Shown piece after piece: positions 11,190-26,746 of a stretch of 64,000 bases of DNA. Each line of letters opens with the position of its first letter. Within the stretch, counting starts at the first letter, position 1. A program made the position numbers and the translations under genes. Under the pieces are notes generated by a model. It ran no database searches. It was not told where the DNA came from and was given only the letters and a program-made list of their open reading frames with translations. The stretch is from Thermodesulfobacteriota bacterium (GTDB taxonomy: Bacteria; Desulfobacterota_D; UBA1144; Nemesobacterales; Nemesobacteraceae). Location: contig OZ240231.1 in assembly GCA_965197885.1 (NCBI GenBank), positions 1,166,369-1,230,368 of the forward strand, given 5' to 3'.

Positions 11190-11200
11190 GGAGTTGTTCC

Positions 11201-12490: not shown

Positions 12491-12512
12491 GTTATAAAGC
12501 GAGAGGTACGTA

Positions 12513-14075
12513 TTGGTAACGCTCAATACCGTAAAACAGAACCATTACCAGGATTCGATGAAGCTTATGCAGATAAGCAGAGAGCTTGCTAATTCTCCCG
12601 GTATCAAAAAGGCTTCGGCCATAATGGCCACTGAAGCGAATTTAAAAACGCTTCGGGACGCGGGATTAATAAAAACCGCGTCGCGCTCACTCGGCGCGAA
12701 CGATCTTATAATAGCGGTTGAGGCAGAATCGGAGACGGCAGGCCACGACGCCTTGGGAAAAATCGATTCCTTTCTGACCGCGCCGCCAGATGGAGTTGGC
12801 CATACAGCCGGATACCGAAGCTTTGAAGAGGCCCTAAGAGCCCCGGGCAACCCGAACATCGCCGTTATCTCCGTTCCGGGGGAGTTTGCGAAACTTGAAG
12901 TCGCAAGAGCCATAAAAAACAACATTCACACCTTTCTTTTCAGCGACAACCTGAGTGTCGGCGAAGAGGTTGAACTAAAGCGAAGAGCCGCGCGCAAGGG
13001 ATTACTTATGATGGGGCCGGGATGCGGTACTGCGATAATAAACGGCGCGGGCTTTGGGTTTGCCAACATCGTAAGACGGGGACCGGTAGGGATTGTCGCC
13101 GCCGCAGGTACGGGCATGCAGGAAGTAGCAAGCCTGATTCATAACTGGGGAGTCGGCGTTTCTCACGGAATCGGGGTCGGCGGAAGGGATCTTTCCGAGA
13201 AAGTGGGCGGGCTGATGGCAATCAAGGCCATGGAACTGCTCGAGAAAGATGAAAACACGGAGATCATTCTGCTGGTCTCAAAGCCGGCTCCGATAAAGGT
13301 AATAGAAAAAATAATCGAAACGGTGCGGCGAGGAAAAAAACCTTTCGCGATGTGCCTGCTCGGGGAAAACGGAATTGAAGCGGAGAAAAACGTGTTTTCT
13401 ACCGATACGCTCGAAGAGTTGTCTTTGCTTGCAGTAAATCTCGCGGGCGGGCAAGGAGGCAAGCGGATCAGAGTTTCCGATGCCGGCCTGAAAAGATACG
13501 GAAGGAATTTCGTCAACTCGCTTCGCCCTTCGCAGAAATACGTAAGGGGGTTGTTTTCAGGTGGCACCCTGTGTTACGAGGCCCAGAAAATACTCACCTT
13601 GTCTCTCGGAAAGATTTATTCAAACGCACCTTTGTCAAAAGACTGCCTGCTTGGCGATTCACGCAAAAGCCGCGGGCACTGCTGCGTAGATCTCGGCGAA
13701 GAAGAGTTTACCGTCGGACGCCCCCATCCGATGATCGACTCCACGCTTAGAAGCGAAAGGATAATCGAGGAAGCAAAAGATCCCCAGACAGCGGTAATTC
13801 TCCTCGATATCGTACTGGGCTACGGCTCAAACGCCGACCCCGCCGGGGAACTTCTCCCGGCCATTGGGCAAGCAAGACAAATAGCTAAAAACAAAAACAG
13901 ATCGCTCGCCTTCATCGCGCACGTGTGCGGTACGGATGACGATCCTCAGAATCTTGACTTGCAGGAGAAAAAGTTAAGGAGAAACGGCATAAAAATTGCA
14001 ACAACTAACGCTCAGGGAGCCAGGGCCGCGGCCTTGATCGCGCGGCTTGCGTCAGAGAGGAGAGCAAGGCGATGA
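12513..14075 (+). CDS. fdrA: FdrA-family protein (succinyl-CoA-synthetase-alpha-like; E. coli FdrA/AllF-like)
   Basis: The start is TTG behind GAGAGG. The N-terminal YQDSMKLMQIS...MATEAN domain is followed by CoA-ligase-like Rossmann segments (ISVPGEFA, MGPGCGTA, AAAGTGMQE). Length is 520 aa. Confidence 0.8.
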   Translation: MVTLNTVKQNHYQDSMKLMQISRELANSPGIKKASAIMATEANLKTLRDAGLIKTASRSLGANDLIIAVEAESETAGHDALGKIDSFLTAPPDGVGHTAGYRSFEEALRAPGNPNIAVISVPGEFAKLEVARAIKNNIHTFLFSDNLSVGEEVELKRRAARKGLLMMGPGCGTAIINGAGFGFANIVRRGPVGIVAAAGTGMQEVASLIHNWGVGVSHGIGVGGRDLSEKVGGLMAIKAMELLEKDENTEIILLVSKPAPIKVIEKIIETVRRGKKPFAMCLLGENGIEAEKNVFSTDTLEELSLLAVNLAGGQGGKRIRVSDAGLKRYGRNFVNSLRPSQKYVRGLFSGGTLCYEAQKILTLSLGKIYSNAPLSKDCLLGDSRKSRGHCCVDLGEEEFTVGRPHPMIDSTLRSERIIEEAKDPQTAVILLDIVLGYGSNADPAGELLPAIGQARQIAKNKNRSLAFIAHVCGTDDDPQNLDLQEKKLRRNGIKIATTNAQGARAAALIARLASERRARR

Positions 14076-15019
14076 AACTGGCCGTCGTTGCTTTCGGAGG
14101 TAACGCGTTTTCAGGTGATAAGAATCATGGAACACACCGAGATCAATTCGCTTTCGCGGAAGATATATCAGGGGAATTGGTGAAACTTGTGGAATCGGGT
14201 TACGGAATCGTCATAACTCACGGAAACGGACCCCAGGTGGGAAACCTTCTGCTCCAGCAGGAATATGCTTCTTGCGCGGCCCCACCCATGCCCGCCGACG
14301 TATGCGGCGCGATGACACAAGGCCAGATCGGATACTTAATCGTTCAAACGCTGAGAAATCACCTCAGAAAAAACAATGTAGATAAACCCGTTGCGGCCAT
14401 CATTACCCAAGTAGTGGTAGACGAAAATGACGAAGCTTTTTCAAACCCGACGAAATTCATAGGACCGTTTTTTGACAAGAAAACCGCCGACTCTCTTAAG
14501 AGAGAGAAAGACTGGAAGATAGAAGAAGACTCTGACAGGGGATATAGAAGGGTCGTGCCTTCGCCAAAGCCGGTGGACATAGTGGAGAAAAAAGAGATCG
14601 CAGACATGATAGGAAGAGGTTTTATCGTCGTTGCGTGCGGAGGGGGCGGAGTGCCGGTTGTCCGCGGGAAAACCGGTGAACTCAGGGGAGTAAGCGGCGT
14701 GATCGACAAAGATCTGGTTTCAGAAAAACTTGCGACTCTCATTGGGGCCGAGACCCTTGCCATAATTACGCCCGTGGACAAGATATCGCTGTTTTTCGGA
14801 ACTAAACGGCAGGTGGACTTAGAGAAAATAACTACAGACGAAGCGGAAAAATACCTTGAGGAAGGACATTTTCCGCCCGGAAGCATGGGTCCCAAGATAG
14901 AAGCGGCGATAAGGTTCTTACGAAAAGGCGGCAAACGCGTGGTGATAACGTCGGCGAAATCGACAACTAAAGCTCTTGAGGGGAAAAAAGGTACTGAAAT
15001 AGTTAATGGGATGAATTAA
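14072..15019 (+). CDS. arcC: carbamate kinase
   Basis: The motifs VVAFGGNAF, ITHGNGPQVGNLLLQ and ACGGGGVPV are present. Length is 315 aa. The ATGA overlap with fdrA suggests translational coupling. Confidence 0.9.
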   Translation: MKLAVVAFGGNAFSGDKNHGTHRDQFAFAEDISGELVKLVESGYGIVITHGNGPQVGNLLLQQEYASCAAPPMPADVCGAMTQGQIGYLIVQTLRNHLRKNNVDKPVAAIITQVVVDENDEAFSNPTKFIGPFFDKKTADSLKREKDWKIEEDSDRGYRRVVPSPKPVDIVEKKEIADMIGRGFIVVACGGGGVPVVRGKTGELRGVSGVIDKDLVSEKLATLIGAETLAIITPVDKISLFFGTKRQVDLEKITTDEAEKYLEEGHFPPGSMGPKIEAAIRFLRKGGKRVVITSAKSTTKALEGKKGTEIVNGMN

Positions 15020-15133
15020 AATGAAATCAATGAGTGGTGACAAGCCTCATAACATAAACGGGTTAAAGGACAGAAATTCCGGGAGGTCCCGGAGAGTAAA
15101 ACATAATAAATATCTTTTTTAGGAGGTGCAGTA

Positions 15134-15625
15134 ATGGCAGTAGACAGAATAAAAAGCGAGAGGCCCCAGGAGGGGAAAGCTCTTGTGGATTACGAAGAAA
15201 AGCTTTTTCCTGACCATATGGCAAAGGAAGGAGAAAAAGCTTTGTTTCTCATACATTCGGTTCCGTATGAAGGTTCTGTAGCAGGTATAAACATGCTTAC
15301 CGCTATCAGGGCGAAAAAGAAAGGATATGGAGTGACGGTTCTTTTCTACGGACCCGCTTCCGGCATACCGGTATACAGAGGCTGGCCGAATGTGGGAGAT
15401 GACGGTTACGGCGCTGGTATTCAGCTCTATCCGAATCTTGTCAAGAGGCTGCTTTCGGAAGGAATAACGGTATACGCGTGCCGTTTTTCCGCTGCCGCGC
15501 TTCTCGGACAGAATGAATCGAGCTTTATCGAGGGAGTTGTCCCGATTCATCCGACGGACATACTGGACATAGTTATCGAGCATCACAGGGAAGGCGCCAT
15601 GATGTTCAGCACGTGGACTGTTTAA
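15134..15625 (+). CDS. MSMEG_0572/Sll0783-type nitrogen-starvation protein (DsrE-like fold)
   Basis: The 163-aa protein has a DsrE-like alternation (ALFLIHSVPY...GYGVTVLFYGPASG...GITVYACRFSA). Its size and its position next to the radical SAM gene match Nit1C 'Hyp1'. Confidence 0.6.
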   Translation: MAVDRIKSERPQEGKALVDYEEKLFPDHMAKEGEKALFLIHSVPYEGSVAGINMLTAIRAKKKGYGVTVLFYGPASGIPVYRGWPNVGDDGYGAGIQLYPNLVKRLLSEGITVYACRFSAAALLGQNESSFIEGVVPIHPTDILDIVIEHHREGAMMFSTWTV

Positions 15626-15689
15626 GGTTTTAAACTCCACGTTGTTGTCCAGGTAATACCGCTTCTTCTTGAAGTTGCGGACAGTTTTA

Positions 15690-15716
15690 ATCCGCTTGCC
15701 AGCGGGGCAAGCGGAT
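15690..15716 (+). other. perfect 11-bp intra-operon hairpin without a T-tract
   Basis: ATCCGCTTGCC, an AGCGG loop and GGCAAGCGGAT lie in the 128-nt gap between the Sll0783-like and radical SAM genes. Confidence 0.5.
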
Positions 15717-15753
15717 AGGGTGTTGTGTGAAATAAAAACGCTGGGGGTGAAAA

Positions 15754-16884
15754 ATGGATTCCAGAACCCTTAAGGTAGAGTTGCAAAGTTACGGTTTGAG
15801 AATTCCTGATTCCAAAAATATCAGGCGAGGGGGCGCCGGTCCCACGGGAGGAATTCATCTGAGGATTCTTCCCGATACCGACGCGAATGTACCGGTTGTT
15901 GGCGATTTCGTAGAATCTTCGCCGTATCATCTTGACAAGATAAACGGCGAAGACTGGATTTTCCGAGATGAAGTGGCTTTAGTACAGGTCGAGCTTATGG
16001 GTAATGGAAGGTTTTACGACCACAAAACCTCAAGCGGAATACCGATGCAGAGAATCGGACTTCTGCACTGCCCGACCACTTTTGCCACGACTCTGCTTCA
16101 GACCTGTGATTTCTGGAAGGACGAGAGAAGGTGTCAGTTCTGCGGAATAGAACTTACTCTCAAGGACAGAAGTACCGTCGGATTCAAAAACGCAAAAGCG
16201 CTTGTTGAAACAATTCAACTCGCAAAGGAACTCGACGGCATTTCCAACATTGTCTTTACTTCCGGCGTTGCACCTGACGAGGAAAAAGCGCTTGAAAAAT
16301 ACGCCGAGATATGTTCCGAGGTTAAAAATCATACAGGGCTTCCGATTCAGCTGCAGATTGTTCCCCCCGAAGACCTGGGCTGGCTGGAGAGGCTGAAATC
16401 TTCGGGGGTGGACGCTCTCGGAGTCCATATTGAAACATTCGACCCGGAGGTATTCGAAAAAATAACCCCGGGCAAGGCTATGATAGGACTTGACAGGTAC
16501 ATAGAGACTTGGAAAGAGGGCGTAAGGGTTTTCGGTAGGTGGGCGGTAAGCACCTATATTCTGGTCGGGCTCGGCGAAAGGCTGGAAACGGTTATCGAGG
16601 GCGCGGAGATTTGCGCAGAGATAGGGGTTTATCCCTTCATCGTGCCTTTCAGGCCTATCGCAGGCACCCCGATGGAAAACGTAATGCCGCCGAGGGCCGA
16701 AGTTATGGAATACGTGTATTCCGAAGCCGCCAAGATTCTGTCCAGATACGACGGAGGGTCCAAAAGCGGCGTGGCCGGCTGCGTAAGTTGCGGGGAATGT
16801 TCCGTGCTTCCCGATTTTGAGAGGCTGCACGAGTCAAAAACAGTAGAGTTTAAAAAATTCATAAAGTCGGTCCCGGTAAATTGA
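15754..16884 (+). CDS. radical SAM protein, MSMEG_0568-type
   Basis: A Cys cluster C118-x8-C127-x2-C130 (TCDFWKDERRCQFCG) is followed by a TIM-barrel-like core. A C-terminal CVSCGEC motif is also present. Length is 376 aa, and the context is the Nit1C-type cluster. Confidence 0.7.
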   Translation: MDSRTLKVELQSYGLRIPDSKNIRRGGAGPTGGIHLRILPDTDANVPVVGDFVESSPYHLDKINGEDWIFRDEVALVQVELMGNGRFYDHKTSSGIPMQRIGLLHCPTTFATTLLQTCDFWKDERRCQFCGIELTLKDRSTVGFKNAKALVETIQLAKELDGISNIVFTSGVAPDEEKALEKYAEICSEVKNHTGLPIQLQIVPPEDLGWLERLKSSGVDALGVHIETFDPEVFEKITPGKAMIGLDRYIETWKEGVRVFGRWAVSTYILVGLGERLETVIEGAEICAEIGVYPFIVPFRPIAGTPMENVMPPRAEVMEYVYSEAAKILSRYDGGSKSGVAGCVSCGECSVLPDFERLHESKTVEFKKFIKSVPVN

Positions 16885-16949
16885 GACGGGGAAAATCATG
16901 ATCCGAAGCCTCGTCACTCTGGATTGCGGATTAAATCAAGGAGACGCAG

Positions 16950-18299
16950 ATGAGTCAAGAGAAACTGAAGTTTATCATAATAGGCGGAGGTGCTGGCGGC
17001 ATTTCCGCGGCTTCCACCGCAAGGGGTCTCGCCGATCCCGATTCATCCGTTACGCTCTTCACCGAGTTTGAAGATGTCGCCTACAGTCCCTGCGGCATCC
17101 CCTTTGTCCACGGCAGGGAGATACCGGATTTCAAAAACCTTTTTCTTCAAACCGCCGAGCACTACACCGGTATCGGAATCGATATCAGATACAACTCCAA
17201 AGTAACGGGAATAGATCTTGATAAAAAGGTCGTGGCTGTGGGCTCCGAGGAGTTTCCGTGGGATCGGCTCATAATCGCAACCGGATTCGAATACGGAAAT
17301 CCGGACATTCCCGGCATCGATCTTGACGGCATTCATTACGTGAAGAACATCCGAAGGGCCATGGAATTTGACAAGGAGCTTGACCGGATAAAGAAGATCG
17401 CCGTGCTATCCGCCTCTCCTCTGGGTGTCGAGATGGCGGGCAACTTGGCGCAAAGAGGAATCGAGACCCATCTTGTGGACGAAGGCGGCTGGCTTATGTC
17501 CGAGGTCGCAGACCCGGATATCATGGAGCCGGTACAGGATTCCTTCGAAGAACTGGGCGTTAACATGCATTTCGGAACCAAGGCCCATGAGATAAAAGGG
17601 CAGGACGGCAAGGTAAAATCCCTGATTACCTCGAAGGGTGAAATAGAGTGTGAAGTCGTTATAGTCGCCACTCACAAGGTGCCGAACAATACTCTTTCCC
17701 GGGAAGCCGGAATAAAACTCGGCTCTACCGGCGGGGTCCTGGTTGATGACCACATGAGAACCAGTGTCCCCGGCGTCTACGCCGCCGGCGACTGCGCGGA
17801 AGTGGTGCACGGGGTCACGGAAATCCCCATTCAGGGACTCTCGGGAAGCCATGCGTACTCCCAGGGAAGAACAGCCGGGGCGAATGCGGCGGGCGATGAC
17901 CGCGCGTACGATCCCGTGTACGTGCCGTGGGGCATGGTTGGCGGAAAAATCCAGATCGGCGGAGTGTCTCTCGGCGAAACCCTTCACAAGGCTCTAGGCA
18001 TACCTCACGTCGTCGCGTTCTCGCAGGGAATATCCAGAGCCAGGTATTACCCCGGAGTCACGAGAATGAGGGTAAAACTCATTGCCGACCCAGAGACTCA
18101 CAGAGTGTTGGGCGCCCAGATGGCCGGCGGGGAAGGGATAAAGGAAAGAGCCGATTTTCTCGCTTTTTCAATCAAGCGCAAGGCTACGCTTGAAGATTTC
18201 GCGTGGATGGAAAACGTGTATTCACCCCCGATAGGCGCCCTGATGGAACCCATCGCCCTAGCGGCGCAGGCGGGGTTGGCCAAATTGGCCGGCAGGTAG
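16950..18299 (+). CDS. FAD-dependent pyridine nucleotide-disulfide oxidoreductase (NADH oxidase/CoA-disulfide reductase-like; MSMEG_0569 position)
   Basis: The dinucleotide motif IIGGGAGG is followed by a single redox Cys in YSPCGIPF. A second Rossmann (AVLSASPLGVEMAG) and GDCAE are also present. Length is 449 aa. Confidence 0.8.
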   Translation: MSQEKLKFIIIGGGAGGISAASTARGLADPDSSVTLFTEFEDVAYSPCGIPFVHGREIPDFKNLFLQTAEHYTGIGIDIRYNSKVTGIDLDKKVVAVGSEEFPWDRLIIATGFEYGNPDIPGIDLDGIHYVKNIRRAMEFDKELDRIKKIAVLSASPLGVEMAGNLAQRGIETHLVDEGGWLMSEVADPDIMEPVQDSFEELGVNMHFGTKAHEIKGQDGKVKSLITSKGEIECEVVIVATHKVPNNTLSREAGIKLGSTGGVLVDDHMRTSVPGVYAAGDCAEVVHGVTEIPIQGLSGSHAYSQGRTAGANAAGDDRAYDPVYVPWGMVGGKIQIGGVSLGETLHKALGIPHVVAFSQGISRARYYPGVTRMRVKLIADPETHRVLGAQMAGGEGIKERADFLAFSIKRKATLEDFAWMENVYSPPIGALMEPIALAAQAGLAKLAGR

Positions 18300-18321
18300 T
18301 TTTTTAAGGAGGTTAAGCAAA

Positions 18322-18582
18322 TTGTCAGAAAATAAACCCCCGGGCGGCTGGTTAAGAAAAAACGCGGAAAAATACCTGCTTGAGGCCGCGGCGGATGATA
18401 TGGCGAATCGTTACCGGGACTGTACTTCCAACGCTTACCGCGAAAAAGGAGTGCTGCCTTTTTTCTGGAGAAACATATTCGTCCCCGTTTACCTTGCCAT
18501 CCCCTGGAAAATTCGCAGAAGAATAATCCTTATGAGTTCTTACCCGGGGGGTGATCGTCCCAAGTGGAAAAAATTCGATTAA
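18322..18582 (+). CDS. small MSMEG_0570-type nitrogen-starvation cluster protein
   Basis: This 86-aa ORF starts 22 nt after the flavoprotein gene. It has a hydrophobic segment (FFWRNIFVPVYLAIPW). Size and position match Nit1C 'Hyp2', and the assignment rests on context. Confidence 0.5.
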   Translation: MSENKPPGGWLRKNAEKYLLEAAADDMANRYRDCTSNAYREKGVLPFFWRNIFVPVYLAIPWKIRRRIILMSSYPGGDRPKWKKFD

Positions 18583-18616
18583 CCCGTCCCCCGGTTCTGT
18601 AAACCTCTCCGTTAAA

Positions 18617-19615
18617 ATGTCGAAAGTAAGCGCCAGAGAGCAGTTGAACGTAAAAACGATCGGAGTTAACGCCTACGAGACTCTCGTAAACCTCAAAAGC
18701 CCCGCGAACATCGAGGGTGTGTTCGAAAATTCCTTCTACGTAAAGGTCGGCGAGTATGAGCTGATCAGGGTTACCCGACACGAACAATACGTTTCAGCAA
18801 GTTCGATAATCGTAGAGGAAAAAGACCGGGATTCGGGCTTCAAATCCATGGGAATCGAACAAGGCATGAGGGTTCTCTGCGGGAAAAAAGATATCTTAAT
18901 AGGAAAAAGATTCGCAGTTGCCAATATCCACGGCGTCGCAAAATGGCAACCGCCGCGCGTCCCGGACAGCGCGTCCATACGCCCGCTTGAGATAATAAAG
19001 CTTAATCTTAGGGTGCTCCGGGACGTGATATACACCTGTCCCAGCAGGGAAGGACTCGTACCGCTGCTTGAAAACGTGGAACTTGTCGGCTCCATTGATC
19101 TTTTCCTAAAACCCCGCACCGACAGCTTTGCCGAGAGAGCAAGACCCGGCATCGAAAGAGTGATGTGGGGGATTTTCTCACTTGATAAGGCCGCGGTCAT
19201 GGAAAGTGCGAGGACAATAATAGGTCTCGGACCGGGACTCACGCCGTCATGCGACGATTTTCTCTGCGGGCTTGTAGTCAGTCTTAAGACCGGAGCGGCA
19301 GTGTTAAGCATGAGTGACGACACTGGGTTTTTCGATGAAATCGCCGGAGCTATTTACGAGGAAGCGCGCCAAAGAACCACGGTTTTCGGCTCAAACATGC
19401 TGAGGGAAGCCCGCGAGGGAGTGTGCCCTCTCGCGGTAGTCAATCTCATCCATTGCCTTCTTACCGAAGATGTGGCGGAGACAGTTGAGGTTTCGAAAAC
19501 GCTGATCAGAATGGGCGAGACCTCCGGGGCGGACATCGCTATCGGGGTATTTTACGGAATCAGGTTTCTGGTCTCGAGGCTTGAGAACCTGGAGGTTTTG
19601 CATGAAACGGCTTAA
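18617..19615 (+). CDS. DUF2877 protein (E. coli YlbF/AllH-like)
   Basis: The GLGPGLTPSCDDFLCG motif is characteristic of DUF2877. I chose ATG 18617 (MSKVSAREQ...). A longer start at 18551 is also possible. Confidence 0.6.
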   Translation: MSKVSAREQLNVKTIGVNAYETLVNLKSPANIEGVFENSFYVKVGEYELIRVTRHEQYVSASSIIVEEKDRDSGFKSMGIEQGMRVLCGKKDILIGKRFAVANIHGVAKWQPPRVPDSASIRPLEIIKLNLRVLRDVIYTCPSREGLVPLLENVELVGSIDLFLKPRTDSFAERARPGIERVMWGIFSLDKAAVMESARTIIGLGPGLTPSCDDFLCGLVVSLKTGAAVLSMSDDTGFFDEIAGAIYEEARQRTTVFGSNMLREAREGVCPLAVVNLIHCLLTEDVAETVEVSKTLIRMGETSGADIAIGVFYGIRFLVSRLENLEVLHETA

Positions 19616-20798
19616 CATAGCGCTTTTCACCTATTCCACAAAACCCAGAGGAGGAGTGGTGCACACGCTTAACCTGGCGGAAAAACTGGAAGAACTTGGC
19701 CAGAAGGTTCATGTTTACGCGCTCGGGACGGAAGGCGGATTTTTCAGAGAAGTTGACGTTCCACACACTCTGGTGCCGTGTCCGAAAAACGAATTCGCCG
19801 GTATGGACGAAAAAATCCACGCCTATATAAAAGCATATGTCGATTACCTGAGCGGCCTTGACGAAACCTACGACATCTATCACGCCGAGGACTGCATATC
19901 AGCAAACGCGCTTTTGGATATAAGGCAAAGAGGTCACATAGAATTTTTTCTGAGAACCGTTCATCACGTTGACGATTTCGTATCGGAATCTCTCGTGGAA
20001 TGTCAGATGAAAAGCATAACGAGACCCGACCACCTGCTGGTCGTAAGCAATTACTGGGAAAAGGAACTCGCCGACAAATACTCCCTCAGACCGCTGCGGG
20101 TAAGAAACGGCGTTGACCTATCCAAGTTTCACGGCACGGCCACCCGAAGCAAAACCCCCGAGGCCTCGAAGCTTGAATTTTCAGCCGGCGGATGCAAGAC
20201 GGTTCTCACGATCGGCGGTATTGAACCCCGGAAAAACACGATATCAACCCTAAGGGCGTTTGCCCGGGTAAAAGCGCGCTTCGCGGTAAAGGACAAGCGG
20301 GTAATCTGGCTGCTTGGAGGCGGGGAAACGCTTTTTGACTACAGGGATTACCGCAAGGAGTTTTTCTTCGAGATGGAAAAACTGGGAATAGAAGAGGGAA
20401 AAGATATTTTCATTCTGGGAAGGGTTCCCGAAGAACTGATTGCCGATCTTTATAACGCTGCTGACGTTTTCGTTTTTCCCTCGTTAAAAGAGGGCTGGGG
20501 ACTCGTGGTGCTCGAAGCCATGGCTTCCGGAGTGCCGGTTATAGCATCCGACATAGAGCCGCTTACTGAATTTATGGAAGACGGGAAAAACTCCCTGCTT
20601 GTCTCCCCTCTGGATTGCGGGGCTCTCGCGGAGGGAATTATCAGAATACTGGAAGACGGGGCGCTGCGTGAAAAACTCAAAACCGGCGGCACGGACACCG
20701 CGGGACAATACGGATGGGACCGTGTGGCGCTTGAACATTTGAACATATACAGGGATATACTGAATACGGGTGTTTCGCACGTAGCGGAAAAGAGGTGA
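19602..20798 (+). CDS. GT4-family glycosyltransferase, MSMEG_0565-type
   Basis: ATG 19602 follows GGAGG. The N-terminus reads FTYSTKPRGGVVHTL, and the C-terminal GT-B E-x7-E region reads FPSLKEGWGLVVLEAMASGVPV. It overlaps the DUF2877 stop by 14 nt. Confidence 0.8.
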   Translation: MKRLNIALFTYSTKPRGGVVHTLNLAEKLEELGQKVHVYALGTEGGFFREVDVPHTLVPCPKNEFAGMDEKIHAYIKAYVDYLSGLDETYDIYHAEDCISANALLDIRQRGHIEFFLRTVHHVDDFVSESLVECQMKSITRPDHLLVVSNYWEKELADKYSLRPLRVRNGVDLSKFHGTATRSKTPEASKLEFSAGGCKTVLTIGGIEPRKNTISTLRAFARVKARFAVKDKRVIWLLGGGETLFDYRDYRKEFFFEMEKLGIEEGKDIFILGRVPEELIADLYNAADVFVFPSLKEGWGLVVLEAMASGVPVIASDIEPLTEFMEDGKNSLLVSPLDCGALAEGIIRILEDGALREKLKTGGTDTAGQYGWDRVALEHLNIYRDILNTGVSHVAEKR

Positions 20799-20803
20799 AA
20801 ACA

Positions 20804-21196
20804 ATGAAAGTCGAGGCAACCTGGAAAAAAAACTATCAGGTGACCGTAAACGCAAGGCAGTTCGATATACCGGTTGACGAGGCGCCCGAATTCAGCGGGG
20901 ACGATACGGGGATGATGCCCACGGAGCTTTTTTTGTGTTCCCTGGCTTCATGCTTCTGTCTTGCCATCGTCTACGCGGCGAGCAGAAGGAAAATCGCGCT
21001 AAAAGACCTAAAAGTTGACGTTACGGGCGAGAAGGATAGGAGAAAATTTTTGTTTTCCAAGTGTATCATCAATGTTAAAAGCTCCATTGCCCGAACCAGC
21101 CTTGAAGACCTTATGGATTCGGCGAAGCGCTACTGTTTCATTACAAACACGATCAAGGGAGGCTGTCCGATCGAATACAGCGTAAACCCGGAGTGA
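20804..21196 (+). CDS. OsmC/Ohr-family protein
   Basis: The two conserved Cys contexts are present (LCSLASCF and RYCFITN). The protein is about 130 aa. An alternative GTG at 20795 overlaps the GT stop. Confidence 0.75.
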   Translation: MKVEATWKKNYQVTVNARQFDIPVDEAPEFSGDDTGMMPTELFLCSLASCFCLAIVYAASRRKIALKDLKVDVTGEKDRRKFLFSKCIINVKSSIARTSLEDLMDSAKRYCFITNTIKGGCPIEYSVNPE

Positions 21197-21208
21197 CGGA
21201 GCATATAA

Positions 21209-21664
21209 TTGGTCGTTGAATTCAAAATCAGAAAAAACGTCTACTATGATTCCCTGCGTCTTATGCGTATTTCGAAAACCGCGAGCGGGGCCGCAGGGGT
21301 AAAAAACGCCTTTGCGGTGATGGCGACCGATAAGGCCAAGTACGCTCTTAATTCCGCCGGGCTCCTGGCGCACGAGATCAAAAAAGCCAAAGGAAGTGAT
21401 CTGGTCATCATCGTTGAAGCGGAATCAAAGGAGCTTGCCAAACAAACGATTAATAGAATAGAAACGCTGATTTCATCAGATGATTCGCAATCGGCTTCGG
21501 CAGCGCCGAACATCCTCAATGAACAGTTACGGGTTGTTAACGTGGGCCTTGAGATATTCGGCGAGTCCTTGGCAGTCCAGGGAGTTGAGGTAAGGCACGT
21601 GGAATGGAAAGTTCCGGCGAAGGGAAACATGAAACTTGTAAATCTGTTAAAGAAAATGATGTAA
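21209..21664 (+). CDS. stand-alone FdrA N-terminal-domain paralogue
   Basis: The start is TTG behind GGAG. Residues 1-90 align by eye with FdrA 12513 (YYDSLRLMRIS / YQDSMKLMQIS; AFAVMATD / ASAIMATE; DLVIIVEAES / DLIIAVEAES). Confidence 0.7.
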   Translation: MVVEFKIRKNVYYDSLRLMRISKTASGAAGVKNAFAVMATDKAKYALNSAGLLAHEIKKAKGSDLVIIVEAESKELAKQTINRIETLISSDDSQSASAAPNILNEQLRVVNVGLEIFGESLAVQGVEVRHVEWKVPAKGNMKLVNLLKKMM

Positions 21665-21690
21665 TTTTCCCCGCGTGGAGGAGAAATTCA

Positions 21691-22275
21691 ATGAGTATAC
21701 GAAACCCCAAGGAATTAAAGGAAGTTCTCTCAAAACCCGAGAATCTGGGCAAGGCGCTCAGCAGGCACACCTACGGTATGCTATCATGGGTTGATCTGTT
21801 CGGTGCCAAGCTTCCCTCGGTTAACGGTATCGAAACCAAGATTATTGTCTCAAGAATAGTTGCCGATAATGCTAGGCATTCGAAACTTTTTTCCGACAGA
21901 GCAAAAGAGCTTGGCCAAAACCCCCAATCATACAGACCCCCTGAAATTGGACAGGAAATCTACGATCTTCTCGATACCTACAACGATACGTTTGACTGTC
22001 TCGCGTACGCCTGGGGATCGCTTGTGCATTTCAAGGAACTGCTGGAACTGTACATAAGCGTTGCCGACTCTCGAAGCCGGGAAATGCTACTTGAGGTGAA
22101 AAAAGACGTCGAGGGTCATTTATTGATGCTGCTGGGGTATTTCCAATCGCAAGCCGACAGCAATTCAAAAAAAGACCGCGCGGAAACCATAAAGACCGTT
22201 GCCGAAGATAAGTACGCCGAAAGAGAGGAACAAGAAATAAACTGGTACTCGCTTCCCGATGTCCCAAACGTTTGA
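21691..22275 (+). CDS. hypothetical all-alpha protein (possibly ferritin-like helical bundle)
   Basis: ATG 21691 follows GGAGGAG. The 194-aa sequence is helix-rich, and no clear di-iron ExxH pairs were seen. Confidence 0.5.
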   Translation: MSIRNPKELKEVLSKPENLGKALSRHTYGMLSWVDLFGAKLPSVNGIETKIIVSRIVADNARHSKLFSDRAKELGQNPQSYRPPEIGQEIYDLLDTYNDTFDCLAYAWGSLVHFKELLELYISVADSRSREMLLEVKKDVEGHLLMLLGYFQSQADSNSKKDRAETIKTVAEDKYAEREEQEINWYSLPDVPNV

Positions 22276-23098
22276 ACAGCTTCGAAAACCTCTGCCTCCC
22301 TACTCGGCGAAGAACATGTATTACAAGCTTCTCGCCGCTTTTCTCAGGACGTTCGGGAGACTGTCATACGGAATTGACACGGGGTTTACCTACGGGTTCG
22401 ACTCGGGAATTATCATGAACTACATCTACGATAACAAGGCGCGGGGAAGATTCGGCGTCGGGCGGGTTCTTGACAGGATGTTTCTGGATCAGGTTACGTG
22501 CAGAGCTTTCAGATCGATAAAGCAGATACAGATTGACATGATTGGTCAATATCTGCGGGAAAGGGATGAAAAGCCAACTTTCATAGTCGATCTCGCCTCG
22601 GGCAAAGCGGACTACATCTACGAAATCCTCAAATCATCCAACCGCAAACTTAAAGTCCTGCTCTGCGACATAGCGGAATCCTCTCTTCGCGAAAGCAGGA
22701 AAATCACAGATGAACTGGGTTTTGGCGATAAAGTGAGGTTCCGCCAAGGCGATGCGCTTGATACAGAAAATCTCAGATGTATAGAACCGAGGCCCGATCT
22801 TTTGATCGAGGTCGGCCTTTACGGGATCATACACGACGACGCCCTCCTGCGCGCCCACCTGCTTGATGTCGGAGAGATTCTTTGTCCCGAGGCTATCCTT
22901 TTTAACGTCCAGACGCAAAACCCGCAAATAGAGTCAATCGCGAGGGTTCTTCAGAACCAGCACGGAGAAAGATGCGTCTGGCATCTTCGGTCGGTGGAGA
23001 AAATCGTCAGCTGGGCGAGAGAAGCAGGATTCAGGGACCCTGAAATCGTAATGGACCCTTATAATATATACGCCGTTGTAATGATGAGGGGAAAGTAA
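22259..23098 (+). CDS. class I SAM-dependent methyltransferase
   Basis: Motif I-like segment FIVDLASGKADYI is followed by an acidic motif II (LLCDIAESS) and GDALD. Length is 279 aa. Confidence 0.7.
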   Translation: MSQTFEQLRKPLPPYSAKNMYYKLLAAFLRTFGRLSYGIDTGFTYGFDSGIIMNYIYDNKARGRFGVGRVLDRMFLDQVTCRAFRSIKQIQIDMIGQYLRERDEKPTFIVDLASGKADYIYEILKSSNRKLKVLLCDIAESSLRESRKITDELGFGDKVRFRQGDALDTENLRCIEPRPDLLIEVGLYGIIHDDALLRAHLLDVGEILCPEAILFNVQTQNPQIESIARVLQNQHGERCVWHLRSVEKIVSWAREAGFRDPEIVMDPYNIYAVVMMRGK

Positions 23099-23149
23099 TA
23101 AGATAGTGTTTTCCGGGATGAGTGATAACACAAATTCGGAGTTGCGCAA

Positions 23150-24559
23150 TTGAGCCAAAAACGGTTCGTACTAGGCTGGCAGTCGCAATCGGAAACATTG
23201 CCGCTGCTTGAGAGAACAAAATCCGGAAAACTGGATTCCGTCACGCAAAGCCCGCATGGAATGTGGAACTACATGACCTACAGGGACGCAATAAATATCC
23301 TGGGCATGGATCCGGCACGGATATATACTGACGGCAGAATTGACCTTGATCCGGAGCAGTGGGCCGACTTCGGCTGGATGCTCTGTCACTGTGGTCCTCC
23401 CGAAAGCGCGGTTCGGGAAATGAAAAAACGGACATTGCGCTCCAATATAAACCCCTACTCTCCCGATCTCATAAATCCTCTCAGGGATTTATGCGCCGAA
23501 TCTGTGTTCAAACGCAAAAGAGGTGGGGATTTCGAAGTGATAGGCACAGAGGGTGCGCAGGCGGGCATCTCCTATGTCCTTAACTCGTTTACGAATCCCG
23601 GCGATGAGGTAATAATCACCGACCCCGGTTACTTTCATTTCGAATCGGCAATCCTGATGGCGGGAGGAATCCCGGTAAAAACAACGCTTGACGCCGGTAA
23701 TGGGTTCAGGCTCGACCCGCTTGAAATTAAAAAGCTAATTTCCGAAAAAACGAAGATCATAATAGTCTGCGATCCGATAAACCCTTTCGGCACGATACAG
23801 AAAAAAGAGGAGCTAATGTCACTAATCGAGATCGCTAGGGATAACGACATCATAATAATAAACGACATAACCCATAACACGCACCGGATCAATCCCCGTA
23901 GCGAGCATTTTCCCATGAGTTCGCTTTGCAAAGAAACGAACACCGACAACGTGGTTTCGATCTACAGCGTCTCGCACGGGTACGGAATGGCCGCCGTTCG
24001 CATCGGTTTTCTCGCGGGACATCCGGATATCATGAAGGCGTGTCTCATGACGAAAATCTCCATGACGCGCCTCAACACCAACCTGATCGCCCAGTATGGA
24101 GCTCTGGCCGCTCTTAAGGACGCCGACTACATAACTGAAACAGAGGAGATTATCAGAACAAATTACCGTTTCATAAAAGACGTCGTGGCTCGCACTCCGG
24201 GAATAGAAATACCCGTCGAACCGAGTTACGGATTTTCCATGGTGATAGACGTAAGCGGCACAGGAGTAACGGCACAGGAACTGACAGTCTCTCTGTTTAA
24301 AAGAAAGATAGCCGTGTACCCCGGCGACGGTCTCGGGGACAGCGGCGCCACTGACTACGTCAGACTGAATTTTTCGCATTCCGACCAGCGGGCACTAAAA
24401 AGATTCGAAGATTCGGTCGATGAATCTATAAAAGAAGCCCAGACGGGTATTTACACGGAAGGCGTAATAAGGTTTTTCGAACAAAAACAAAACGAGAGGG
24501 CAGGATGGATCCTTCGGAAATTGAAAAACAGGTCAAAGGGCCGTCAAGCGGCATACTAG
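23150..24559 (+). CDS. fold-type I (class I/II) aminotransferase homologue lacking the Schiff-base lysine
   Basis: The protein has the motifs CDPINPFGT and VRLNFSH. The PLP-Lys motif reads SVSHGYGMAAVRIGF, with His (CAC 23975-23977) where S-x-S-K is expected. The start is uncertain (TTG 23150 or ATG 23261). Confidence 0.75.
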   Translation: MSQKRFVLGWQSQSETLPLLERTKSGKLDSVTQSPHGMWNYMTYRDAINILGMDPARIYTDGRIDLDPEQWADFGWMLCHCGPPESAVREMKKRTLRSNINPYSPDLINPLRDLCAESVFKRKRGGDFEVIGTEGAQAGISYVLNSFTNPGDEVIITDPGYFHFESAILMAGGIPVKTTLDAGNGFRLDPLEIKKLISEKTKIIIVCDPINPFGTIQKKEELMSLIEIARDNDIIIINDITHNTHRINPRSEHFPMSSLCKETNTDNVVSIYSVSHGYGMAAVRIGFLAGHPDIMKACLMTKISMTRLNTNLIAQYGALAALKDADYITETEEIIRTNYRFIKDVVARTPGIEIPVEPSYGFSMVIDVSGTGVTAQELTVSLFKRKIAVYPGDGLGDSGATDYVRLNFSHSDQRALKRFEDSVDESIKEAQTGIYTEGVIRFFEQKQNERAGWILRKLKNRSKGRQAAY

Positions 24560-25473
24560 ATCAAATAGGCAACACACCGCTTGTAAAGTTAAGCAACATT
24601 AGTTCCGGCCGTATCCCGAATTTTTACGCTAAACTCGAGTTCTTTAATCCTTCCGGAAGCATAAAAGACAGGGTGGCGCGATACATACTGGAGATTTCCG
24701 AAAAGAACAATCTATTAGAACCCGGAGGTCTGATAGTTGAATCCACCTCGGGTAATATGGGACTTTCCTTCGCGCTGATCGGTACGCTTAAGGGTTACAG
24801 GTGCCTGTTCGCCATTCCGGAAACCATAAGCGAAGAAAAAATAAAAACCCTCAGGCTGTTCGGTGCCGAGGTAGTTCTCACGCCGAGGGGACTGCCTCCG
24901 AGCGATGAGAGAAGCTGTTACAAGGTCGCTCAGAAAATCGCAAAGGAAAGGGGTGCCCTGTACATTAATCAGTACTTCAACGAGTTAAATCCCGAGTCGC
25001 ACTACCACTCGACGGGCCCCGAGATATGGAAACAGACCGCAGGGATGGTGGACGAAGTGTTTTGCGGTATAGGAACCGGAGGCACCATAAGCGGAGTCGG
25101 GAAATATCTTAAGGAAAAAAACCCCGGCATGAGAATGATAGGGGTGGAACCCGTGGGTTCGGTATTCAGTGAATATTACAGGGAAGGCACCGTCCCGCAG
25201 GCCGGCAATTTTGAAGTGGAGGGCATTGGAAAAAACTTTATTCCAGGGACACTTGATTTTGACTTCGTTGACGACGTGGTTCAAGTAAGCGACAAGCGCT
25301 CTTATGAGGCCGTAAACGACTTGATAAGCAGCGAAGGGATCCTTGCCGGAGGATCCGGCGGCGCCGTCATCGCGGCGGCGCTCGATTATTCCGGGTCGCT
25401 TGAAAAAAACCGGTGCGTCGTAGTAATACTGCCCGACACTGGACTTAAATACTTGTCGAAATTCGCCGTTTAA
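24505..25473 (+). CDS. cysteine synthase/cystathionine beta-synthase-family PLP enzyme (fold type II)
   Basis: The motifs NPSGSIKDR (PLP Lys), STSGNMG and GIGTGGTISG are present. Length is 322 aa. Confidence 0.85.
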   Translation: MDPSEIEKQVKGPSSGILDQIGNTPLVKLSNISSGRIPNFYAKLEFFNPSGSIKDRVARYILEISEKNNLLEPGGLIVESTSGNMGLSFALIGTLKGYRCLFAIPETISEEKIKTLRLFGAEVVLTPRGLPPSDERSCYKVAQKIAKERGALYINQYFNELNPESHYHSTGPEIWKQTAGMVDEVFCGIGTGGTISGVGKYLKEKNPGMRMIGVEPVGSVFSEYYREGTVPQAGNFEVEGIGKNFIPGTLDFDFVDDVVQVSDKRSYEAVNDLISSEGILAGGSGGAVIAAALDYSGSLEKNRCVVVILPDTGLKYLSKFAV

Positions 25474-25489
25474 CGCAATCCGTCATGTC

Positions 25490-26746
25490 ATGAAAAATAT
25501 TGAGCCCGCATACGTTGACAACCTTGTCAAGAGATACGGAAGCCCTTTATTCCTGGTATCCGCTGAAACACTTGAAAACAACGTCAGAGCATTTAAAAAG
25601 ATGTTCCGCGAAAAATACCCGAAGACCGAAGTCGCCTACGCTTACAAAGCAAATTATCTATCTCAGATTCTAAAGATAATCCACGAAGAAGGTGCTTGGG
25701 CCGAGGTCGCCTCCGGATTTGAATACGATATAGCAAGAAAACTGCAGGTTCCGGGCAGTGAAATAGTTTTTAACGGCCCCGGCAAAACCAAAGAAGATCT
25801 ACGCACCGCGGTTTCGCAGGGGGCGTTGGTAAACGTTGACAATGAAGATGAAATCAGCCTGCTTGGCGAGATTGCCAGCGAACTCAAAAGTTCCCTAGAC
25901 ATTGGAATCAGAATCAATGCGGATGTTGGAATAAATCAGAAAATTGACAGATTCGGCTTTAATCTTGAAACCGGAGAGGCATTCAGAATAGTGGGACTAT
26001 GCAAGGCGACAGGGGTTCTTAACGTCATCTGCCTCCACTTGCACCTAACAAGCTATATAGTTGAGACGGATGGGGAGGAAAAATATACGCCCGCGCAAAA
26101 CATAAAGCTTATCTGGCCCAAAAACGCCGACATGTATGAGATCGCCGCCAAAAAGATTTCAAGGCTGGTAAAAAGAATAGAAAAAGAACTTGGCGCCGAA
26201 ATAAAATATATAGACCTTGGCGGAGGGTTTCCCTCAATAAAAGACCTGAGCATCTATGTAAGCAAGGTGACGGAACCTTTAATCCACGAATTCGGAGAAG
26301 ACGGGCCGATTTTGCTTCTGGAGCCAGGAAGAGCTATCGTAAAGGACGCGATTTCCCTTATAACGACCGTGCTTGGTTCAAGGGAACTTGAAAACGGGCA
26401 GAGGGCTGTAACGACCGATGCCGGAATAAACAGCCTTCCCACTTCGTACTGGAGTTCCCAGGAGGTAAGACCGCTTAGACCTTCCAGAGAAAAGTTAAGA
26501 AACACAATAATATACGGTCCTTTATGTCTTCAAACGGATATCATTGCCAAAACACTCATAAACGAATTTGAGCGTGGGGATAAAATCGTCGTGGAAAACG
26601 TGGGAGCATACAACATTCCCCAGGGAAGCCCTTTTATTTACCCAAGACCCTGCGTCGTTATGCTCCAAGGCGCCGCGGCACGGGTGATCAGAAGAACTGA
26701 AACGGTTAATGACTTTTGGGAACTTGAAGAAGTAACGGATACCTGA
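25490..26746 (+). CDS. fold-type III PLP-dependent decarboxylase (ornithine/diaminopimelate decarboxylase family)
   Basis: The motifs YAYKAN (PLP Lys), DLGGGFP, EPGRAIV and GPLCLQTD are present. Length is 418 aa. Confidence 0.85.
   Translation: MKNIEPAYVDNLVKRYGSPLFLVSAETLENNVRAFKKMFREKYPKTEVAYAYKANYLSQILKIIHEEGAWAEVASGFEYDIARKLQVPGSEIVFNGPGKTKEDLRTAVSQGALVNVDNEDEISLLGEIASELKSSLDIGIRINADVGINQKIDRFGFNLETGEAFRIVGLCKATGVLNVICLHLHLTSYIVETDGEEKYTPAQNIKLIWPKNADMYEIAAKKISRLVKRIEKELGAEIKYIDLGGGFPSIKDLSIYVSKVTEPLIHEFGEDGPILLLEPGRAIVKDAISLITTVLGSRELENGQRAVTTDAGINSLPTSYWSSQEVRPLRPSREKLRNTIIYGPLCLQTDIIAKTLINEFERGDKIVVENVGAYNIPQGSPFIYPRPCVVMLQGAAARVIRRTETVNDFWELEEVTDT

What the first reader, a model, noticed from the sequence alone, without database searches (positions are those of the whole stretch)
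23150..24559. Aminotransferase-fold protein with the PLP Schiff-base lysine replaced by histidine
The canonical class I motif S-x-S-K-x-x-x-M-x-G-x-R-x-G-Y/F reads SVSHGYGMAAVRIGF here. The bona fide aspartate aminotransferase at 41106 has GVSKSYSMTGWRIGY.

The His codon CAC (23975-23977) differs from AAA or AAG at two positions, so a single sequencing error is unlikely.

The D-x-x-Y PLP-stacking region also deviates (NDITH). Other fold landmarks are retained (INPFGT and the C-terminal VRLNFSH).

This suggests a non-canonical catalyst, a binding or scaffold pseudoenzyme, or a non-covalently bound cofactor within the cluster.
Basis: seen in the sequence. Interest (0 to 1): 0.6.

Follow-up and report, generated by a model that had tools for sequence, protein, structure and literature searches.

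The report
Lysine-less, histidine-type class I aminotransferase homologue
This gene encodes a well-folded aminotransferase-type protein that carries histidine where the vitamin-B6-anchoring lysine should be; the change is conserved in a multi-phylum clade tied to one uncharacterised gene cluster, so it is probably a working but non-standard B6 enzyme.

Summary
ORF 23150-24559 (+, 469 aa) is a class I/II aminotransferase-fold protein. His276 (CAC 23975-23977) aligns with the Schiff-base Lys of solved AspATs and of the window's own AspAT at 41106.

It is not an error or a decaying gene:
- All ~170 orthologues examined (Dadabacteria/Thermodesulfobacteriota, Actinomycetota, Chloroflexota MAGs; 42-98% identity) carry His, encoded by both CAC and CAT.
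- dN/dS is about 0.1.
- The AlphaFold model is confident (pLDDT 93.5).

Every other cofactor- and carboxylate-binding landmark is kept, except that the Tyr225 equivalent is also an invariant His (H242).

Among 61 related genomes the gene co-occurs with the MSMEG_0568-type radical SAM gene of a nitrilase-less Nit1C-like cluster. Everywhere it sits near a DAP-decarboxylase-like gene.

A close sister clade (about 50% identity) keeps Lys, has Asn at the Asp222 position, and lies outside the cluster.

The most likely reading (about 0.55) is an active PLP/PMP enzyme without an internal aldimine, with His276 as acid/base. This parallels ColD/E1/SpnQ and the AspAT K258H mutant. A pseudoenzyme role is not excluded, and the substrate is unknown.

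This scan noted the same clade before on other DNA (e1-3919050, e1-3399519, e1-3981219, e1-2882269).

The parts
23150..24559 (+). His-type class I aminotransferase-fold gene (469 aa), TTG start
   Evidence: ORF. PF00155 at 3e-32. AF2 pLDDT 93.5. Foldseek top hits are class Ib AspAT and prephenate aminotransferases.
23138..23141 (+). GGAG Shine-Dalgarno-like motif 8 nt upstream of the TTG start
   Evidence: Read from the sequence. Orthologues start at the same codon with LSQKRFVLGW.
23975..23977 (+). CAC, His276, at the Schiff-base Lys258 position
   Evidence: Aligned to the catalytic Lys. His in 120/120, in all 50 genome loci where the motif was read, and in 23/23 sampled rows. Codons are CAC 38 and CAT 17.
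23873..23875 (+). CAT, His242, at the Tyr225 position (O3' hydrogen-bond partner in AspAT)
   Evidence: His in 23/23 H-type and 15/15 K-type rows; Tyr in 15/15 ordinary aminotransferases.
23864..23866 (+). GAC, Asp239, equivalent to Asp222 (pyridine-N1 partner), retained
   Evidence: D in 22/23 H-type rows; N in 15/15 K-type rows.
23780..23782 (+). AAC, Asn211, equivalent to Asn194, retained
   Evidence: Invariant in all groups.
23456..23458 (+). TAC, Tyr103, equivalent to Tyr70* (phosphate contact from the partner subunit), retained
   Evidence: Aligned to Tyr64 of T. thermophilus AspAT. Invariant.
23999..24001 (+). CGC, Arg284, equivalent to Arg266 (phosphate), retained
   Evidence: Invariant.
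24362..24364 (+). AGA, Arg405, equivalent to Arg386 (substrate alpha-carboxylate), retained
   Evidence: Invariant.
24053..24070 (+). K302...R307 segment: family-wide Lys302, and the clade-specific loop T-R-L-N-T (K-I-H in the Lys-type sister clade)
   Evidence: Placement at the partner-subunit substrate loop is inferred from spacing only.
22259..23098 (+). PF12147 methyltransferase-fold gene directly upstream
   Evidence: Syntenic in Dadabacteria and in actinobacterial type A loci.
24505..25473 (+). CysK/CBS-like fold-type II PLP enzyme with a canonical Lys (SGSIKDR); overlaps the aminotransferase gene by 55 nt
   Evidence: Present in many but not all Dadabacteria loci and absent from actinobacterial loci.
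25490..26746 (+). DAP/ornithine-decarboxylase-fold PLP enzyme with a canonical Lys (YAYKAN); the most constant neighbour
15754..16884 (+). MSMEG_0568-family radical SAM gene of the Nit1C-like core; phyletically coupled to the aminotransferase homologue
   Evidence: TIGR04043, 334 bits against a cutoff of 304. It occurs in the same genomes as the aminotransferase homologue: 18 genomes have both, 42 have neither, and one fragmentary genome has the homologue only.

Best explanation
The protein is an active vitamin-B6 enzyme of the class I (AspAT-like, subgroup Ib) fold that works without an internal aldimine.

Proposed mechanism (all steps inferred):
- PLP/PMP is held non-covalently by the intact phosphate pocket (Tyr103*, Gly135-Ala136-Gln137, Ser275, Arg284), by ring stacking (Tyr161), by Asp239 at N1, and by Asn211 and His242 at O3'.
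- The substrate carries an alpha-carboxylate, bound by Arg405. It probably also carries a second anionic group, bound by the invariant Arg307/Asn309/Thr310 loop.
- His276 stands in for Lys258 as the general acid/base for the C4'/C-alpha proton shift, as in the PMP-dependent dehydratases ColD, E1 and SpnQ and in the engineered AspAT K258H.
- The likely cycle is PMP-first: PMP condenses with a keto acid and His276 moves the proton. The outcome is either amination or elimination of a leaving group, and the product leaves by hydrolysis rather than transimination.
- The product is then passed to the adjacent DAP-decarboxylase-like enzyme and a methyltransferase, inside a nitrilase-less Nit1C-type pathway.

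Shown here: the fold, the substitution, its conservation, the purifying selection, the retained pocket residues, and the cluster linkage.

Inferred: cofactor binding, the role of His276, the PMP-first order, the substrate class, and the hand-off to the decarboxylase.
For: His276 aligns with the catalytic Lys.

Conservation:
- His is invariant in 120 homologues, in all 50 genome loci where the motif was read, across three phyla, and in further hits.
- Both His codons are used, CAC 38 and CAT 17.
- dN/dS is 0.10-0.13.
- Of 469 positions, 97 are at least 97% conserved. These include D239, N211, R284, R405, Y103, Y161, H242 and H276.

Group comparison shows the PLP and carboxylate landmarks kept and only Lys258 and Tyr225 replaced.

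Structure: the AF2 model has pLDDT 93.5 and pTM 0.92. The nearest folds are AspAT and prephenate aminotransferases.

Genomic linkage:
- Synteny with the decarboxylase and methyltransferase holds across phyla.
- The gene is phyletically coupled with the radical SAM gene.

Precedent: a catalytic His replaces Lys in E1, ColD and SpnQ (PMC8987622). A structural study of catalytically active AspAT K258H is cited as ref 50 of PMC8405696.
Against: - No biochemical data exist for any member.
- From my own knowledge, the engineered K258H AspAT is a very poor catalyst, so His alone does not guarantee useful rates.
- The known natural Lys-to-His enzymes belong to a different subfamily (DegT) and act on NDP-sugars, not amino or keto acids.
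- Three invariant His residues (163, 242, 276) plus Asp, Glu and Cys near the site could serve something other than B6 chemistry.
- The substrate is unknown.
Confidence: 0.55

Rival explanations
1. The protein is a non-catalytic pseudoenzyme. It would act as a ligand-binding, chaperoning or scaffolding subunit that binds a B6-substrate adduct or a pathway intermediate and presents it to neighbouring enzymes such as the decarboxylase or the CysK-like enzyme.
For: - The residue that defines catalysis in this family is missing.
- The 55-nt overlap with the CysK-like gene suggests coupled expression.
- A Lys-less aminotransferase-fold partner subunit has been described: Ser4 with Ser5 (PMC11726168, abstract).
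Against: - The protein is full length, with conserved N- and C-terminal extensions, not truncated like Ser4.
- No canonical class I paralogue sits beside it in any of the loci surveyed.
- The substitute is always His, a competent acid/base, never Ala, Ser or Gln.
- Substrate-carboxylate and catalytic-shell residues are invariant. A scaffold would not need that.
Confidence: 0.22
2. The protein is a conventional PLP enzyme in which another lysine (for example the 99%-conserved Lys302, possibly from the partner subunit) forms the Schiff base.
For: Lys302 is nearly invariant and lies 26 residues after His276, just before the conserved TRLNT loop.
Against: - Lys302 is equally conserved in the sister clade that still has Lys276, so it did not arise to compensate.
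- From general knowledge of the superfamily, no fold-type I enzyme is known to use a Lys at that helix.
- P. horikoshii 1gd9 also has a Lys there as well as its normal catalytic Lys (alignment).
Confidence: 0.07
3. The pocket has been repurposed for another cofactor or a metal. His163, His242 and His276, together with Asp239, Glu134 and Cys298, would form a metal or other ligand site, and the chemistry would not depend on B6.
For: Three invariant His residues plus acidic residues and a Cys line the former cofactor site. Cys298 is specific to the His-type clade.
Against: - All phosphate-binding and ring-binding residues remain invariant (Arg284, Ser275, Tyr103, Gly135, Asn211, Tyr161). That is hard to explain without a pyridoxyl phosphate ligand.
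- His163 and His242 are shared with the Lys-bearing sister clade.
Confidence: 0.08
4. The His is a sequencing or assembly error, or the gene is decaying.
For: None found.
Against: - His is present in about 170 independent assemblies, with both His codons used.
- dN/dS is about 0.1.
- The reading frame is intact in nearly all genomes.
Confidence: 0.01

Closest known systems
Class Ib aspartate/aromatic/prephenate aminotransferases (P. horikoshii 1gd9/1dju, T. thermophilus 1bkg/1bjw, A. thaliana PAT 5wmh/6f5v)
   Same: - Same fold (Foldseek E about 1e-26, TM about 0.83-0.87 on the target).
- Best sequence matches in the PDB (1gd9, 2.9e-32).
- Same phosphate, ring and alpha-carboxylate residues.
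   Different: - Lys258 is replaced by His and Tyr225 by His.
- There are extra conserved extensions of about 45 residues at the N-terminus and about 40 at the C-terminus.
- Identity is only 20-30%.
- Family-specific residues are E134, Q137, F162, H163, T241, K302 and N407.
- The gene is encoded in a specialised accessory cluster, not in core amino-acid metabolism.
ColD, E1 (AscC/DdhC) and SpnQ: PMP-dependent NDP-4-keto-6-deoxyhexose 3-dehydratases (DegT/DnrJ/EryC1 family)
   Same: These are natural fold-type I enzymes in which the catalytic Lys is replaced by a His that acts as base and acid on a PMP-substrate Schiff base (PMC8987622). They are the mechanistic template for the reading given here.
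   Different: - They belong to a different subfamily. The PF01041 hit here is partial (31 bits, residues 130-242) against 113 bits for PF00155.
- Their substrates are nucleotide sugars, whereas this protein keeps the alpha-carboxylate Arg of amino-acid aminotransferases.
- No four-Cys [2Fe-2S] motif is conserved.
Engineered AspAT K258H (Malashkevich et al. 1995, Biochemistry 34:405; cited in PMC8405696 ref 50)
   Same: It carries the same substitution at the same position in the same enzyme class. The paper's title states that catalytic activity persists without the PLP-binding Lys.
   Different: It is a laboratory point mutant of a normal transaminase. Here the His is natural and ancient, and it is accompanied by Tyr225-to-His and other shell changes.
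Lys-bearing sister clade of the same extended family (P0121, P0271, P0272; loci L055-L088)
   Same: - 42-58% identity over the full length, including both extensions.
- Shares H163, H242, K302, E134, Q137 and N407.
   Different: - Has Lys276, but Asn instead of Asp at the Asp222 position.
- Has a K-I-H loop instead of R-L-N.
- Its neighbours are ABC transporters, GntR/LysR regulators, a proline-racemase-like enzyme and flavoenzymes. None is a Nit1C-like gene.
- It is also uncharacterised.
GntC / VioD-type PLP cyclodehydratases and PRK06225 aminotransferases (best NCBIfam models)
   Same: They give the highest-scoring curated models: PRK06225 at 181 bits and GntC at 164 bits.
   Different: The scores are far below the family cutoffs (351 and 415 bits), and those enzymes keep the Lys.

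Membership tests
Class I/II aminotransferase superfamily (Pfam PF00155, fold type I) | Sequence match above the curated cutoff, and the fold-type I two-domain architecture | tested here: met
   PF00155 scores 112.7 bits against a cutoff of 19.7. The AF2 model has pLDDT 93.5. Foldseek top hits are all class I aminotransferases.
Class I/II aminotransferase superfamily (catalytically canonical member) | Schiff-base lysine (Lys258 in AspAT numbering) | tested here: not met
   His276 occupies the position.
Class I/II aminotransferase superfamily (catalytically canonical member) | Asp222, Asn194, Arg266, Arg386 and Tyr70* equivalents | tested here: met
   D239, N211, R284, R405 and Y103 are invariant or nearly so.
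Class I/II aminotransferase superfamily (catalytically canonical member) | Tyr225 equivalent hydrogen-bonding O3' | tested here: not met
   His242 in all H-type and K-type family members; Tyr in 15/15 ordinary aminotransferases.
PMP-dependent 3-dehydratases ColD/E1/SpnQ | His in place of the catalytic Lys | tested here: met
   The feature is described in PMC8987622.
PMP-dependent 3-dehydratases ColD/E1/SpnQ | Membership of the DegT/DnrJ/EryC1 subfamily (PF01041) over its full length | tested here: not met
   Only a partial 31-bit hit to profile positions 42-148 of 360. All the best PDB and NCBIfam matches are class I amino-acid aminotransferases.
PMP-dependent 3-dehydratases ColD/E1/SpnQ | [2Fe-2S] four-Cys motif (E1 and SpnQ only) | tested here: not met
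   Cys298 is the only Cys among the positions conserved in at least 97% of sequences.
PMP-dependent 3-dehydratases ColD/E1/SpnQ | Use of PMP and an NDP-4-keto-sugar substrate | not testable with these tools
   This needs biochemistry. The retained alpha-carboxylate Arg405 argues for an acid substrate instead.
Lys-less pseudo-subunit of a heteromeric aminotransferase (Ser4/Ser5 type) | Truncated termini and an adjacent catalytically competent paralogue | tested here: not met
   The protein is full length with extensions. No class I paralogue is adjacent in the loci surveyed. In actinobacterial type B loci the neighbour is a class V (PF00266) protein.
Nit1C / MSMEG_0567-0572-type cluster (as an accessory member) | Co-location and co-occurrence with the MSMEG_0568 radical SAM, MSMEG_0572 and sll0787 AIR-synthase-like genes | tested here: met
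   TIGR04043, TIGR04044 and TIGR04049 score above their cutoffs. Synteny holds in Dadabacteria and Actinomycetota. The phyletic patterns match in 60 of 61 genomes. No nitrilase ORF was found in the window.

The most novel reading that the evidence does not exclude
This would be the first natural amino-acid-class (class I, non-sugar) B6 enzyme lineage that has given up the internal aldimine. It would use His276 as the catalytic base in a PMP-first cycle on an alpha-keto acid intermediate of the still-unsolved Nit1C-type nitrogen-stress pathway.

The family also offers a natural experiment in how the Schiff-base lysine can be lost or regained. It contains three states:
- His276 with Asp239 (inside the cluster)
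- Lys276 with Asn239 (outside the cluster)
- rare His276 with Asn239 intermediates (P0294, P0122)
Probability: 0.4. Interest if true: 0.75.

Novelty: new variant of a known kind. Interest (0 to 1): 0.6.

Why it matters
The Schiff-base lysine is the textbook invariant of PLP enzymes. Natural replacement by histidine is documented only for a few nucleotide-sugar dehydratases.

A large, strongly conserved His-type clade inside the ordinary amino-acid aminotransferase class would have several consequences:
- It would extend lysine-free B6 catalysis to a new substrate class.
- It would flag hundreds of database entries now mislabelled as "aspartate/methionine/tyrosine aminotransferase" or "pyridoxal phosphate-dependent aminotransferase".
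- It would give a concrete, assayable enzyme inside the enigmatic Nit1C/MSMEG_0567-0572-type cluster, whose chemistry is unknown.
- The Lys/Asn sister clade and the His/Asn intermediates provide ready-made comparison proteins for dissecting what the internal aldimine is needed for.

Tried and rejected
- **The look-up of encoding contigs:** I obtained genomic contexts from the search for related loci and the genome search instead.
- **Model coordinates:** they are not exposed to the script machine. I could not measure the His276-to-C4' or Lys302 distances or dock PLP.
- **ESM Atlas:** the look-up only returned generic aminotransferase clusters.
- **Literature:** searches for PF12147, and for a natural class I Lys-to-His enzyme, found nothing specific. 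A search for Nit1C/MSMEG/sll078x papers gave physiology and cyanide-assimilation studies, with nothing in their titles or abstracts about the cluster's chemistry.
- **Tree topology:**
  - A quick tree placed the Lys-type clade inside the His-type clade, which would imply a His-to-Lys reversion.
  - I rejected that. The constrained tree with all His-types together had a log-likelihood 35 units higher (AU p = 0.92).
  - The careful ML tree recovers the Lys/Asn clade (99/98) as sister to P0294 plus the His/Asp clade. Deep support is weak, and P0122 sits on a long branch.
  - The direction of change is therefore unresolved.
- **Function of the sister clade:** I looked for a named function for the Lys-type sister clade and found only generic annotations.
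- **E1/SpnQ-like Fe-S site:** I considered and rejected it, because only one Cys is conserved.
- **Sequencing error or pseudogene:** considered and rejected.

Full report
**Observation**

The window has an ORF at 23150-24559 on the + strand. It has a TTG start, GGAG 8 nt upstream, and encodes 469 aa.

Pfam assigns the protein to Aminotran_1_2 (PF00155, 3e-32). phmmer alignments to solved class Ib aminotransferases (1gd9, 1dju, 1bkg) put His276 on the Schiff-base lysine in the S-K motif. A BLASTP alignment to the window's own canonical AspAT (41106-42299, GVSKSYSMTGWRIGY, SDEIY) does the same.

The Asp (D239, equivalent to Asp222) is present, and the Tyr225 equivalent is the residue replaced, by His242.

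**Real and selected**

- All 120 best homologues in the 5.8-billion-protein collection (61-91% identity) read S-x-S-H-G-Y-G-M.
- Fifty-four genome loci were recovered from Dadabacteria/Thermodesulfobacteriota, Actinomycetota (two subclades) and Chloroflexota MAGs. Identity falls as low as 42%. All 50 loci where the motif could be read carry His.
- The His is encoded by CAC 38 times and CAT 17 times.
- dN/dS against four orthologues is 0.10-0.13.
- Across 174 sequences, 97 positions are at least 97% conserved. These include H276, H242, D239, N211, R284, R405, Y103 and Y161.
- An AlphaFold2 model built on a 78-sequence alignment is confident (mean pLDDT 93.5, pTM 0.92). Its nearest solved folds are prephenate and aspartate aminotransferases.

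Sequencing error and gene decay are therefore excluded.

**What is kept and what is changed**

I mapped positions through the T. thermophilus and P. horikoshii alignments and compared three groups.

The cofactor phosphate pocket is intact:
- Tyr103, equivalent to Tyr70*
- Gly135-Ala136-Gln137, equivalent to positions 108/109
- Ser275
- Arg284, equivalent to Arg266

Also intact are the ring-stacking residue (Tyr161, equivalent to Trp140), Asn211 (Asn194), Asp239 (Asp222) and the alpha-carboxylate Arg405 (Arg386). Only Lys258 and Tyr225 are replaced, both by His.

The only conserved Lys nearby is K302. It is equally conserved in the Lys-bearing sister clade, and P. horikoshii 1gd9 also has a Lys there. 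It is therefore not a compensating Schiff-base lysine.

**A distinct family with a Lys-type sister**

An exhaustive phmmer search of 1.84 billion cluster representatives shows a sharp drop. Family members score at least about 380 bits, while ordinary aminotransferases score about 140 bits at about 30% identity.

Inside the family there are also Lys-type proteins, such as P0121, P0271 and P0272. They share 42-58% identity and the same N- and C-terminal extensions. These always pair Lys276 with Asn at the Asp222 position and with a K-I-H loop. The His-type pairs His276 with Asp239 and an R-L-N loop. Two sequences are His/Asn intermediates (P0122, P0294).

The Lys-type genes are never next to the window's cluster genes. 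Their neighbours are ABC transporters, GntR/LysR regulators, a proline-racemase-like enzyme and flavoenzymes.

On the phylogeny:
- A quick tree nested the Lys-type inside the His-type.
- That did not survive testing. The constrained tree was better by 35 log-likelihood units.
- The careful ML tree gives a robust Lys/Asn clade (99/98) as sister to P0294 plus the His/Asp clade, with weak deep support.

The direction of the Lys/His change is unresolved.

**Genomic setting**

The gene sits in a co-directional block running from 9147 to 26746:
- GNAT
- sll0787-type AIR-synthase-like protein
- HTH-cupin regulator
- AllG
- FdrA
- carbamate kinase
- MSMEG_0572 family protein
- MSMEG_0568 radical SAM
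- pyridine-nucleotide-disulfide oxidoreductase
- AllH-like protein
- GT4 glycosyltransferase
- FdrA-N-like protein
- an unknown ORF
- PF12147 methyltransferase
- this gene
- CysK/CBS-like PLP enzyme
- DAP-decarboxylase-like PLP enzyme

No nitrilase was found. The two neighbouring PLP enzymes keep their lysines (SGSIKDR and YAYKAN).

The arrangement is conserved across Dadabacteria and, rearranged, in Thermoleophilia-type Actinomycetota. In Chloroflexota and in actinobacterial type B loci the recurring partners are the decarboxylase, a methyltransferase or class V aminotransferase, and a luciferase-like monooxygenase.

Among 61 related genomes, 19 have the gene and 18 have the radical SAM gene. 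They are the same genomes, apart from one fragmentary assembly. Only 8 of 35 other species in the window's own genus have it. In one genome the two genes lie 50 kb apart yet still co-occur. The gene is thus a committed part of an accessory pathway that is gained and lost as a unit.

**Interpretation**

Four lines of evidence bear on function:
- an invariant His, which is a competent acid/base, and never an inert residue
- an intact pyridoxyl-phosphate pocket and carboxylate site
- strong purifying selection
- operon membership among enzymes

Together they point to a working B6 enzyme that holds its cofactor non-covalently and uses His276 where Lys258 normally shuttles the proton.

There are two precedents. 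E1, ColD and SpnQ have a catalytic His in place of Lys acting on a PMP-substrate Schiff base (PMC8987622). The engineered AspAT K258H has a published structure whose title states that catalytic activity is retained (ref 50 of PMC8405696).

I therefore favour a PMP-first cycle on an alpha-keto acid, with the product handed to the adjacent decarboxylase (confidence about 0.55). These mechanistic steps are inferred, not shown.

The rivals are:
- a non-catalytic ligand-binding subunit (about 0.22; compare Ser4/Ser5, PMC11726168)
- another lysine as the Schiff base (about 0.07)
- a repurposed His-rich site (about 0.08)

**Comparison and novelty**

The protein is a member of the class I/II aminotransferase fold family, but it fails two residue-level criteria of a canonical transaminase. 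It works like ColD or E1 in the one respect tested, His for Lys. It is not a DegT-family member, it has no Fe-S motif, and it keeps the amino-acid carboxylate site.

I found no paper describing a natural Lys-to-His class I aminotransferase. The library covers only open-access texts.

Earlier notes of this scan reached the same conclusion for the same clade on other genomes. I reached mine independently and add the following:
- the Lys/Asn sister clade and the His/Asn intermediates
- the codon and dN/dS evidence
- the phyletic coupling
- the negative result on the reversion hypothesis

My verdict is a new variant of a known kind, with interest 0.6.

Noticed in passing
L055-L088 (metagenome loci); proteins P0121, P0271, P0272, P0275-P0297: The Lys-bearing sister clade has Asn at the otherwise near-universal Asp222 (pyridine-N1) position in every sequence examined. 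That is unusual for a fold-type I PLP enzyme. Its contexts look catabolic or transport-related.
   Followed up: partly
P0294 and P0122 (no loci): Two family members combine His276 with Asn239, so they are possible evolutionary intermediates between the His/Asp and Lys/Asn states. P0122 sits on a long branch with odd composition.
   Followed up: partly
P0125 (759 aa, Logan assembly): A Lys-type family member carries a C-terminal extension of about 280 residues with unknown function. It may be a fusion.
   Followed up: no
window 24505-24559: The aminotransferase homologue and the CysK-like ORF overlap by 55 nt if the ATG at 24505 is the true start. This suggests translational coupling or a later start for the CysK-like gene.
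   Followed up: no
window 7648-8505 (-) and L037 5523-6596 (-): An Amidohydro_2 (PF04909) gene lies next to the cluster in the window and next to the radical SAM gene in an actinobacterial locus. It might be an unrecognised member of the nitrilase-less cluster.
   Followed up: no
G043:C9 (59534-60901 and 7788-8897), from the genome search: In one family of the order, the aminotransferase homologue and the radical SAM gene lie about 50 kb apart on the same contig. They still co-occur, so the cluster can be split without loss of either part.
   Followed up: no
L005 / G029:C90: One orthologue ends four codons earlier at a TAG stop (VRDR*AAY). This is a trivial length variant of the C-terminus, not a disruption.
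   Followed up: yes
L037 11356-12474 and 12968-14089; L035 11386-12471: In actinobacterial type B and Chloroflexota loci the His-type gene is followed by a class V aminotransferase-fold gene and/or a luciferase-like monooxygenase, instead of the CysK-like gene.
   Followed up: partly
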